From assembly GCA_964016885.1 (NCBI GenBank), contig OZ024742.1:305660001-305724000 (forward strand): DNA of 64,000 nt. The letters are read 5' to 3'. Position 1 is the stretch's first letter. Every line of letters starts with the position of its first letter. The DNA is from Eledone cirrhosa (lineage: Eukaryota). A program made the position numbers and the translations under genes. The notes below the pieces were generated by a model. That model was not told where the DNA came from. It saw only the letters and a program-made list of their open reading frames with translations, and did not search any database. Positions 19,504-22,575 of this stretch are shown here, piece after piece.

Positions 19504-20061
19504 GTGTTTGTGTGTACCCACGTGTACACCCACAAATAATAATATATATATAAGGAGATAGAAGGAAAGAGAGAGAGTAAAAGAGAGAGAGAGAGGAGTG
19601 CAGGATGCTAAGACGCAGAAAATAACTCCAATTACAGTCAGTTTCTATAAAATAGCCTATATAAATCGGTTAGAAACACTTAAAGACTGAGTTCGTTTCT
19701 TCAAAGCGGCCGCTAACAACATCTTTCTTTCCATTTCTAATGGTCTTTACCCTATTTTTATTACCTATTTCATAGCAACTGTCTCTAATTGCAGTTATTT
19801 TCTGTGCATGAGCATCCTGCATCTTCTAAAAATTTATTTCCTCGGTATTTCATAAGTTCGAATATTCGAGCTTCATACACGATTATTGTTTATATATATA
19901 TATATAAATTTTGAGTACATGTTGGTTGTTTACCGACACCTCAGTATGCAGATTGGAGGACTCGACGAAGTACGCAGGTTGGTTTGTTTACTCCGGAGTA
20001 ATGTAAAATAATTAAGTGAAATATGTAAAATTTGGCTTCTTTTATTATAAATTATAGATAT

Positions 20062-20116
20062 ACTGCTATATATATTTCGGTGACAGCCATCATTGGCTGT
20101 GACCTCTTCAGGAAGT
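20062..20116 (-). ncRNA. Hammerhead ribozyme, family A, antisense arm (one stem I mismatch)
   Basis: Reverse complement: ACTTC-CTGAAGA-GGTCACAGCCA-atga-TGGCTGTCACC-GAAA-TATATA-TA-GCAGT. Confidence 0.75.
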
Positions 20117-20278
20117 CCGAATTGGTGTGGTAGAGACAGGTACGCATGTTGTTGAAGTGTGTTTTACTCCGTCAATACTCCGATATGTCCAACAACGAGG
20201 AGCTGGACATATCAGAGTATTGACGGAGTAAAACACACTTCAACAACATGCGTACCTGTCTCTACCACACCAATTCGG

Positions 20279-20333
20279 ACTGCCTGAAGAGGTCACAGCC
20301 AATGATGGCTGTCACCGAAATATATATAGCAGT
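20279..20333 (+). ncRNA. Minimal type-I hammerhead ribozyme, family A
   Basis: ACTGC-CTGAAGA-GGTCACAGCCA-atga-TGGCTGTCACC-GAAA-TATATA-TA-GCAGT. Full core, stems I and II, palindromic stem III. Confidence 0.85.
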
Positions 20334-22575
20334 ATATCTATAATTTATAATTCATAATAAACGAAGACAAATTTTACATATCTGACTTAATTACTTTATA
20401 TATATATATATATATACGATGGTCTTCTGCATAATGACTGTCTCCCCGCTTCGCATCAAAAGGTGCTGTACAAACCGAGACTCCGTTAGAGATAATTGCC
20501 TAGTGACCTTATGATGAGGCCGAACCAGGAACGATATATTTGTTTAAGCGAACATTTTAGCCACAGAGCCATACTTCAATTGCATGAACTGTCGTTGTAC
20601 TTTTATAGTATCAGGCAAGATTTCGTTTTGCTATCAGACAAATAAATGTAATTTATCATATGTTTGCTAGTTAGAATTGAGCTTAAGTTGTCCCATTGTG
20701 AATTCCAGTTTTGTAGCTGCTAAAGTTGAAATGAGCAACTACATAGCCGCCGTTCTTCTTGATAACAATATACTATCAAACTGTACACCCTATTATCTTC
20801 ATGACATCAAATTATTATAGTGATTATATTTATATTTCAAAAACACTCTCTTTGCACTGTTGGGCAAAAACCACGTCTATTTCCCATTTGTCTTACGTGG
20901 GACTTTGCATCACACATGTTGTATCACTGCATCTTCTCTGGGGGCTAATAACAGAATAATAGTTAGTCGACTGTAAAACAGGTAAGGTAAGCAAATTAGA
21001 TAGAATTTTTTTTCCTCTGCCAAGCGCTGCTACTAAATTGTTGTTATTATTACATAGCTATCAATACATATATAGCAATAATAGAATGCTGGTTTGGATG
21101 TAGGTAGGTGGTTAGGTTGGTTGGTATGAAGACATGGTGGAAGGAAGGCAGTTTAGATATTCATCATAAATCATATTTAATATCAACTGAGATTTGGACA
21201 AAGAACTGGCTGAGTCGTGCTGCACGATTCCTCAAACACTATGTACACAAACACACATGTACATACACTGACATATACACTCACTAACACGTGTATACTC
21301 AAACCCATTACAGAATATGTGGTGTAGCAATAACTGTAAAATGTGCCCTTCATCTGATTACTTTGATAAACTGAACAAATTTGCAGCCATTATAAGGTTT
21401 CTCTTGAGCTAGCCAATAACTTTTGAACCTTGACTCTCATAAAAATCTCTTCATCATAGCCAACATCATAGTCATCATCGTCAAACTCCTCCTATTACTC
21501 CTTCTTCATTCATGACCTCTCCCTTCTTCTTCTTGTTGATACATATGTTGTTGTTGTAGTTGTTGTTGTTCTTCATCTTCTTCTTCTACTCTCCTCCTCA
21601 TCCCCCTCCTCCTCCTTCTTCTTCTTCTTCTTCTTCTTCTTCTTCTTCTTCTTCTTCTTCTTCTTCTTCTTCTTCTTCTTCTTCTTCTTTCGTTCTTTCT
21701 TTTCCTTCAACACTATATTTTTCCTTCTCAGCATCACTCCTTAAAACCAAATCTCATTCAATGGAAGAATCTCATGACATTCGTATATGTAGACTTATAT
21801 TAAATATATGTAGACTTATATAAATATGCTTATCTGTTTGTCTGTTTGTGTGTACATCATTAGATGTCATTGTGGTTGTCTCTCTAGCTCAACCCTATTG
21901 GGACATATAATCCCATCTTTTTCTATATTTAAGACAACATAATCCAATGTATCTTTCTGGATTCCAGATGGGAGGGTGTGATTTAAGGGAAATTTGCCTA
22001 TTATTTCTAGCAAATTTAACGACTATGAGGAGTCACCATATTTGGCTCACTTTTCCAGTCATACCTATGTGTGTTTTTAACTATATTTAGTAAATTTTGC
22101 TCTGGATTTTCAAACTAAGCACCATACTGACTTTTCTCTGGAACCAATGAATGAGATTTATTGCATTGTCACTTGAATCTCTAGAAGGGGCATCCTCGCG
22201 AAGTGGAGAGAATATTTTGCTGATCTCCTAAACCTGGTCACAACAACGTATGCTGATTTACACGAAGTGTATCAGGGAACGACAAATCACCTCTCAGAGT
22301 GTGAGATCATAAGACCAGTTAAAGGGCTCAAATGTGGCATGTCTCCCGAGGAAGACAACATTTAAATAAAGAGGGTATTCTCTTTAAATAAAGAGGGTAT
22401 TCTCTGGCTGACTCGTGTGTATTTTGAGGGAAACATAGCTACTGTTTCGGGTATATCACTTCCCGGGTTCAAGAATATTTTAGTTATCTGTGTCATTTTC
22501 CACACTGAGTCTTCATGTTACATGTGCGCGTATATGTATGAATGCGTGTGCATAAATATATATATATACATATAC

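What the first reader, a model, noticed from the sequence alone, without database searches (positions are those of the whole stretch)
19907..20397. Family A: arms within a copy match each other better than they match the other copy
Seen: both arms of copy 1 have stem II loop ATGA and GTTTTACTCCGTCAATACT. Both arms of copy 2 (59346-59849) have loop AAGA and TATAACCTTGTCAATACT. The fold-back point (near TCAATACTCTGA) and the short-arm end are almost the same in both copies. Inference: the inverted arm is re-synthesised at each insertion by programmed cDNA fold-back or template switching, or it is homogenised by intra-hairpin conversion.
Basis: partly seen in the sequence, partly recalled or inferred. 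Interest (0 to 1): 0.75.

Follow-up and report, generated by a model that had tools for sequence, protein, structure and literature searches.

The report
Two-ended priming builds Penelope hairpins
These two hairpins are cut-short copies of a Penelope-type jumping gene, and their arms match because each arm was likely copied afresh from RNA of one source, one arm from each side of the DNA break at two fixed start points, which would explain the long-puzzling inverted ends of these elements.

Summary
Confirmed: arms within a copy are 96-97% alike, across copies 85-88%. Not confirmed: the shared fold point. Both copies are 5'-truncated, head-to-head pieces of the hammerhead-bearing end of a Hydra-clade Penelope-like retrotransposon in (TA)n; this layout is known. 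Among 177 distinct pairs, all 146 with both ends intact join one tailed to one tail-less arm (none alike), as do 10 of 10 long copies. Arms cluster by locus and share source haplotypes (5-8% discordance, 37-44% permuted). Full-arm fold-back fails: the tail-less arm is the longer in 51 of 105 pairs and 15 pairs share no sequence. Conversion is minor (45 rare variants shared, 391 not). Arms stop at one site (59 of 77) that often carries an untemplated G, a likely capped RNA start. Best reading (0.7): both target ends prime reverse transcription at two fixed sites about 95 nt apart, and the cDNAs are joined head to head. The published idea is self-priming. No RNA or biochemical data here. The scan noted the same reading for other families of this genome.

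The parts
19907..20191 (-). Copy 1, tailed arm (d1 to about d282 of the element's pLTR / 5' region), subfamily 1
19907..20004 (-). Copy 1, unpaired 'tail' (d1-95): the stretch between the two inferred reverse-transcription start sites; its first bases hold the palindrome TTACTCCGGAGTAA
   Evidence: start-site role inferred from PMC11167929
20062..20116 (-). Copy 1, minimal type I hammerhead in the tailed arm (one change breaks stem I)
20192..20397 (+). Copy 1, tail-less arm (about d293 to d96)
20279..20333 (+). Copy 1, minimal type I hammerhead in the tail-less arm (CUGAAGA, stem II, GAAA, palindromic UAUAUAUA, stem I 5 bp)
19890..19906 (.). (TA)n target, left flank of copy 1
20398..20416 (.). 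(TA)n target, right flank of copy 1
59346..59665 (-). Copy 2, tailed arm (d1 to d326), subfamily 2; tail about 59346-59442, hammerhead about 59494-59548
59660..59667 (.). Copy 2, true junction: TCATATGA, both arms end at d326 and overlap by ATAT; d326 is the inferred capped RNA start
59662..59849 (+). Copy 2, tail-less arm (d326 to d96) with a 36-nt gap near 59681 between TCAG repeats; hammerhead about 59743-59797
59850..59866 (.). (TA)n target, right flank of copy 2 (left flank is (TA)n then (GA)n)

Best explanation
The two hairpins are 5'-truncated insertions of a Hydra-clade Penelope-like retrotransposon whose two arms were likely made as two separate cDNAs, each primed by one end of the cut (TA)n target, one at a distal and one at a proximal start site about 95 nt apart, on RNA from one source locus (probably one molecule), and then joined head to head. 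Shown by sequence: element identity, the one-tailed/one-tail-less rule, independent 5' truncation, shared haplotypes, a stop site at d326 with an extra G, no stop at the ribozyme cut site. Inferred: both strands are cut and both prime; d326 is a capped transcription start, so short hairpins are run-off copies of the uncut 5' end of the RNA; the cDNA ends join through 1-8 nt microhomology, sometimes after a short snap-back; a two-subunit enzyme assigns one start site to each end.
For: (a) 146 of 146 pairs with both ends intact are tailed plus tail-less, none alike, among 177 distinct pairs from 320 loci; 10 of 10 long copies with both ends intact among 39 examined, in both arrangements, 6 and 4. 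(b) Neither arm can always be a copy of the other: tail-less arm reaches >10 nt further in 51 of 105 end-picked pairs, tailed arm in 27, 15 pairs have no shared sequence, rho -0.02; in L349, L352, L353 the inverted arm is joined straight to the inside of the ORF. (c) Arms share source haplotypes: 12 of 263 and 25 of 317 polymorphic sites discordant vs 37% and 44% permuted, also where the tail-less arm is longer; in 22 of 22 low-overlap loci with a readable tail the tail votes for the partner's subfamily; two subfamily-2 haplogroups have the same arm-arm divergence, 0.033 vs 0.029, p 0.32. (d) 59 of 77 arms that reach d320 stop in d320-329, against about 2-5% per 10 nt in most other bins, and no excess at the hammerhead cut d157. 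(e) Base before d326 is G in 74 of 100 listed purine cases, template has C, 0 of 30 inspected continue the template; extra G marks capped 5' ends in L1 (PMC11702581, passage). (f) In full-length copies the tail runs on into the ORF. (g) In vitro a Penelope protein cuts and extends both strands, starts at two internal sites that bound the tail, uses uncut RNA and is predicted to be a dimer (PMC11167929).
Against: Shared haplotypes could come from one active source per cell rather than one RNA molecule; sequence cannot separate these. Three of 88 tested loci have two or more discordant linked sites (L067, L071, L076). 45 rare variants are shared between arms, far above my rough hand estimate of about 2 by chance, and L177 (0 differences in 156, 5 rare shared) and L130 (6 rare shared) look converted or folded back. 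Gaps near the junction in 11 of 100 loci and 31 pairs with an arm ending elsewhere fit snap-back or later deletion at palindrome tips, which could also create some length asymmetry. Only 113 of 230 end-picked loci showed a full pair in the fetched span. About 6 of 20 inspected G cases can also be read as microhomology with the partner arm. The fine tail-linkage test was nearly all major alleles. PMC11167929 saw no difference in start site between strands.
Confidence: 0.7

Rival explanations
1. One cDNA folds back on itself (self-priming, as proposed in PMC3846280 and by the first reader) and copies the whole second arm; length asymmetry comes from later deletions at the hairpin tip.
For: The hot spot sits in an 8-bp palindrome; 12 of 105 pairs have both arms ending there. 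Short inverted stretches of 6-50 nt follow the run-off end at several junctions and in lone arms such as L002, L008, L029, L197. Arms share rare variants.
Against: Gives no reason for a fixed stop at d96 followed by (TA)n (143 of 146). Fails for 15 non-overlapping pairs and for inverted arms joined to the ORF interior. In 23 of 105 pairs the tail-less arm keeps its natural end at d323-332 while the tailed arm stops below d300, which random tip deletions would rarely give. Rare sharing is similar in symmetric (29 shared, 207 not) and asymmetric loci (16, 184).
Confidence: 0.13
2. Arms are made similar after insertion by gene conversion or hairpin repair.
For: 45 rare shared variants; L177 and L130 stand out; an unrelated 204-nt hairpin in the window is 100% perfect.
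Against: 391 rare variants are unshared; arms differ by 3-5%; most shared variants are common source variants (140 of 202); conversion cannot match a tail to a partner it does not overlap, nor explain the fixed ends.
Confidence: 0.05
3. Both ends prime as in the best reading, but on two different RNA molecules that happen to come from the one source active in that cell, and the one-of-each rule is imposed later (only such pairs are joined or survive).
For: Both arms often cover the same 5' region up to d326, which on one RNA needs strand displacement; three loci have mixed haplotypes.
Against: Haplogroups of the same apparent age are almost never mixed; no reason is apparent why like-with-like pairs would be lost completely (0 of 146).
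Confidence: 0.09
4. A preformed hairpin is copied intact (as a MITE-like or read-through unit).
For: L066 and L067 share an identical junction with different flanks.
Against: No left/right clustering; junction sharing at chance level (12 vs 11.2 +/- 4.1); arms are pieces of a coding retrotransposon.
Confidence: 0.03

Closest known systems
Hydra clade of C-terminal-endonuclease Penelope-like elements (Craig et al. 2021, PMC8557442; passages, section 11, supplement rows seen)
   Same: RWK/RWR and DKT motifs, CxCx5C linker, GIY-YIG without CCHH, CxxC and CxH, hammerhead, (TA)n targets.
   Different: Longer (about 5 kb with a long 3' region) with a 95-nt tail rather than 30-40 nt; its hammerhead differs from the Hydra-1_Obim row seen in the supplement, so it is another family. 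No phylogeny was run.
Canonical PLE insertion layout: inverted 5'-truncated pLTR plus a tail at one end (PMC8557442, PMC3846280; passages seen)
   Same: Identical layout, here in short and long copies.
   Different: Those papers describe it and leave the mechanism open or propose self-priming on an antisense template; the counts here point to two target-primed cDNAs.
Poseidon element of Anolis in vitro (Frangieh et al. 2024, PMC11167929; parts 1-2 of 4 read)
   Same: Two internal start sites bounding the tail, both strands cut and extended, ribozyme cleavage not needed, AT-rich target.
   Different: It does not link the two sites to the inverted arm in the parts read and reports no strand difference; a one-of-each rule per insertion was not measured.
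LINE-1 twin priming (PMC11702581; passages seen)
   Same: Both target ends prime on the RNA and the cDNAs are joined by microhomology, giving an inversion; extra G at capped 5' ends.
   Different: In L1 the second priming is occasional, at variable sites, and the two cDNAs cover adjacent parts; here both sites are fixed and the cDNAs overlap, giving a hairpin.
Animal non-LTR retrozymes (10.64898/2026.07.22.740005; part 1 of 5 read)
   Same: Type I hammerhead, short non-coding copies, PLE link.
   Different: These copies are not tandem monomers; they are truncated pieces of a coding element.

Membership tests
Hydra-clade PLE | RWK motif near the N terminus | tested here: met
   MRWKA / MRWRA in linked copies
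Hydra-clade PLE | DKG changed to DKT | tested here: met
   HADKTNNLY
Hydra-clade PLE | CxCx5C linker before a C-terminal GIY-YIG endonuclease | tested here: met
   CNCRTPTLC then IYG...YIG; Pfam GIY-YIG E 0.0005, below the curated cut-off
Hydra-clade PLE | No CCHH between GIY and YIG; CxxC and CxH around E and N | tested here: met
   CKLC...E...N...CRH, no cysteine pair in the core
Hydra-clade PLE | RT domain of PLE type in one ORF with the endonuclease | tested here: inconclusive
   YRDD and flanking RT-like motifs by eye; no Pfam or NCBIfam hit; all copies seen are broken; three intact 701-806 aa homologues at 38-46% identity, two read, carry the same motifs
Hydra-clade PLE | Placement in the clade by RT phylogeny | not tested
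   No reference Hydra sequences were held
Hydra-clade PLE | Hammerhead in the pLTR; insertion into (TA)n | tested here: met
   TA run at 143 of 146 tail-less ends; Rfam gave no match at gathering score
Canonical PLE insertion | Inverted 5'-truncated pLTR next to the copy, tail at one end | tested here: met
Canonical PLE insertion | Target-site duplication | not testable with these tools
   Both ends lie in (TA)n; no empty sites held
Minimal type I hammerhead | Core CUGANGA/GAAA, long stem II, short stem I, palindromic stem III | tested here: met
   description in PMC4209133 (passages)
Minimal type I hammerhead | Self-cleavage | not testable with these tools
   No excess of 5' ends at the cut site, which concerns the template used, not activity
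Non-LTR retrozyme | Tandem non-coding monomers independent of an ORF | tested here: not met
   Arms are contiguous with the ORF in long copies
MITE / foldback DNA transposon | Hairpin copied intact, fixed centre and symmetric ends | tested here: not met
L1-type twin priming | Second priming at variable sites, non-overlapping cDNAs | tested here: not met
   Fixed second site, overlapping arms in 90 of 105 pairs; it works like twin priming but is not the same pattern

The most novel reading that the evidence does not exclude
Penelope-like elements integrate by obligate, programmed double-ended reverse transcription: a two-subunit enzyme holds one uncut, capped RNA at two hard-wired start sites and gives one site to each target end, copying the same RNA stretch twice. 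The tail, the inverted pLTR and the head-to-head junction are then one product, which replaces the self-priming model and makes this a third way of retrotransposon integration beside LTR and LINE routes.
Probability: 0.4. Interest if true: 0.75.

Novelty: new member of a known kind. Interest (0 to 1): 0.5.

Why it matters
How Penelope-like elements form their inverted ends is stated as open (PMC8557442). The genomic record here gives counts that separate the models and names the sites to mutate: two start sites, a capped start, a junction palindrome. If both DNA ends are primed at fixed RNA sites, that is of use for understanding telomerase-related reverse transcriptases and for RNA-templated insertion tools. 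It also explains thousands of short hairpins in this genome as by-products, not MITEs.

Tried and rejected
Rfam scan of the window: no match. RNA evidence: no RNA holder listed, so no reads were laid. Hammerhead cut site as the 5' boundary: first suspected, rejected by the hazard table. L067 and L071 as clean proof of two different RNAs: L067 shares its junction with L066 and L071 is a mosaic, so not used as proof. C2:94303480/94305020 as a tail-less/tail-less pair: the arms are not adjacent (L151). Count of template-continuing copies: the pattern was ill-formed and matched nothing. Pfam and NCBIfam did not recognise the RT. The protein atlas gave no result for this sequence. Folding the tail gave no one structure joining both start sites. 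No complex was predicted; the dimer is taken from PMC11167929. Literature: 8 searches found no paper that tests two-ended priming for PLE inversions; most subscription papers, including the 2005-2008 Penelope papers, are outside the library, and supplementary figures were not seen. Rows dropped: 18 duplicate or segmental-twin pairs before the count of 177; 24 long loci left out; loci with under 80 shared columns left out of distance tests (88 of 140 tested).

Full report
Conventions. d is the distance from the tailed end of the element in reference copy L022 (d1 = last base). T arm = arm ending at d1-12, S arm = arm ending at d88-104.

1. The observation. Both hairpins are there. The short-arm end is fixed. 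The fold point is not shared: copy 1 joins about d282 to d293; copy 2 joins d326 to d326 in the palindrome TCATATGA, with a 36-nt gap in the right arm.

2. What the element is. The window lies in a 3.0-Gb animal genome. Exact end patterns match 444 and 369 times (short end plus TA, two subfamilies) and 826 times (tailed end plus TA), with 0 for reversed controls. Each arm holds a minimal type I hammerhead (type described in PMC4209133, passages); Rfam has no match. Longer copies run upstream into a GIY-YIG endonuclease and an RT-like region, and in near full-length copies the tail runs on into the ORF start. The protein pieces carry every Hydra-clade motif listed in PMC8557442 section 11: RWK, DKT, CxCx5C, no CCHH, CxxC and CxH; two intact homologues read show the same. 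Pfam gives only a weak GIY-YIG hit and none for the RT. The hammerhead differs from the Hydra-1_Obim row in the supplement. The layout, an inverted truncated copy and a tail at one end, is the textbook one.

3. On a tree of 47 loci with at least 140 shared columns, 19 have their two arms as sister tips and the T/S label changes 39 times against 31.6 +/- 2.6 in shuffles, so there is no left/right clustering. In the larger set, within-locus distance is below between-locus distance in 32 of 35 (5.0 vs 7.6%) and 49 of 53 loci (3.1 vs 5.8%); 117 of 117 pairs with both arms called to subfamily 1 or 2 agree (4 more pair a subfamily-1 arm with an intermediate one); polymorphic sites disagree in 12 of 263 and 25 of 317 cases against 37% and 44% permuted. 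Junction coordinates are shared among loci at chance level, 12 of 105 vs 11.2 +/- 4.1; only L066 and L067 share one letter for letter. So arms are made together at each insertion.

4. Which mechanism. (a) End rule: 320 loci gave 195 head-to-head pairs, 177 after removing duplicates; 146 are T plus S, none T plus T or S plus S, and 31 have an arm ending elsewhere. Loci were picked by S-end patterns (180), a T-end pattern (50), DNA similarity (60) or the d326 word (30); each route could have shown like-with-like pairs. Among 39 long copies, 10 have both ends intact, all opposite (6 inverted T with long S, 4 the reverse). (b) Fold-back of a whole arm: in 105 end-picked pairs the S arm reaches more than 10 nt further in 51, the T arm in 27, 27 are level; 15 share no sequence; lengths are uncorrelated. 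In L349, L352 and L353 the inverted arm abuts the ORF interior, kilobases from its match. Even so, in 22 of 22 low-overlap loci with readable tail sites the tail votes with the partner's subfamily; a finer linkage test agreed throughout but was nearly all major alleles. (c) Conversion: 45 rare variants are shared and 391 are not; 140 of 202 shared variants in the first set were common ones. A low rate is likely (L177, L130). (d) 5' ends: 59 of 77 arms reaching d320 stop in d320-329; the bins around the hammerhead cut (d157) show 4 of 174 and 8 of 170. The template has C before d326; of 373 genome matches with a purine there, 74 of the first 100 have G (p 2e-15 against 35%) and none of 30 inspected continues the template, though about 6 of 20 G cases also fit microhomology. 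Pyrimidine matches number 2396, 9 of 100 listed being T. In L152 both arms carry the extra G. An extra G marks capped 5' ends of L1 insertions. TCA with A as first base resembles an initiator (recalled, not tested). (e) Junctions overlap in 61 of 105 pairs by alignment; several show 6-50 inverted bases after the run-off end, so a short snap-back or later tip deletion is part of the picture.

5. Model. Shown: points (a)-(e). Inferred: the enzyme cuts both strands in (TA)n; each 3' end primes on the uncut RNA, one at d1 and one at d96, both at TTT-A steps followed 6 nt on by CTCC; each cDNA runs toward the 5' end and stops early or at the cap; the ends join head to head. Priming near the RNA's 5' end gives the short hairpins of this window, priming in the 3' repeat gives long copies. 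This matches the in vitro Poseidon results: both strands extended, two start sites bounding the tail, cleavage not needed, predicted dimer. That paper saw no strand difference in start site, which is compatible with either end taking either site, as the 6-and-4 split here shows. Whether one or two RNA molecules serve is open; two haplogroups of equal apparent age that almost never mix favour one molecule or one source per cell; three loci are mixed.

6. Against and limits. No RNA or enzyme data; all copies are old (arms differ 3-5%), so later deletion cannot be excluded case by case; only 113 of 230 end-picked loci showed a full pair within the fetched span, many others being long copies or having tiny partners; samples come mostly from the two largest contigs; clade placement rests on motifs.

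7. Known versus new. The element is a new family of a known clade and the layout is known. The published explanation is self-priming (PMC3846280, passages), and PMC8557442 calls the mechanism undefined. Eight searches found no paper testing two-ended priming for these inversions, within the library's limits. Earlier notes of this scan reached the same reading for other families of this genome; I had stated mine before seeing them, and they are not independent support. Verdict: real, ordinary in kind, with unusually clean evidence on an open mechanism. Interest 0.5.

Noticed in passing
window 10281-10821: Unrelated hairpin with 204-nt arms that are 100% complementary, 1 nt apart, plus about 130 unpaired nt on the left up to a TA run: same tailed/tail-less layout, very young or homogenised.
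   Followed up: partly
window 10863-11055, 38689-38868, 48205-48531, 55095-55172: Another family of short head-to-head arms in (TA)n with a 77-nt unpaired tail on one arm.
   Followed up: partly
window 54206-54512 and 15760-15908; 44531-44638 and 38562-38614; 46815-47305: Further hammerhead-like cores (CTGATGA...GAAA), two of them in inverted arm pairs, from families unrelated to this one.
   Followed up: partly
window 4341-4523, 25813-25964, 27577-30898, 43646-43829, 57260-57474, 60435-60642, 63283-63489: A roughly 190-nt repeat family with dispersed, tandem and inverted copies.
   Followed up: no
L357 (same place as L258), L370, L375: Long copies whose inverted arm is kilobases long and includes the endonuclease region; L357 has two such junctions at the same point (d43) facing each other around an inverted ORF piece.
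   Followed up: no
tail of the element, d80-66 and d26-12 (window 19975-19990 and about 19919-19934, minus strand): Two AC-rich direct repeats (GTAAAC-AA-CCAAC) inside the tail; the in vitro paper places initiation in an AC-rich stem loop.
   Followed up: no
L066 and L067 (C4, 1.2 Mb apart): Identical junction with different flanks, but the tailed arms differ in haplotype: a possible intact copy followed by conversion from another locus.
   Followed up: partly
L092:1651-2628: 326-aa open frame of a host membrane protein beside a long copy; resembles a chitin synthase exon (recalled, unverified).
   Followed up: no
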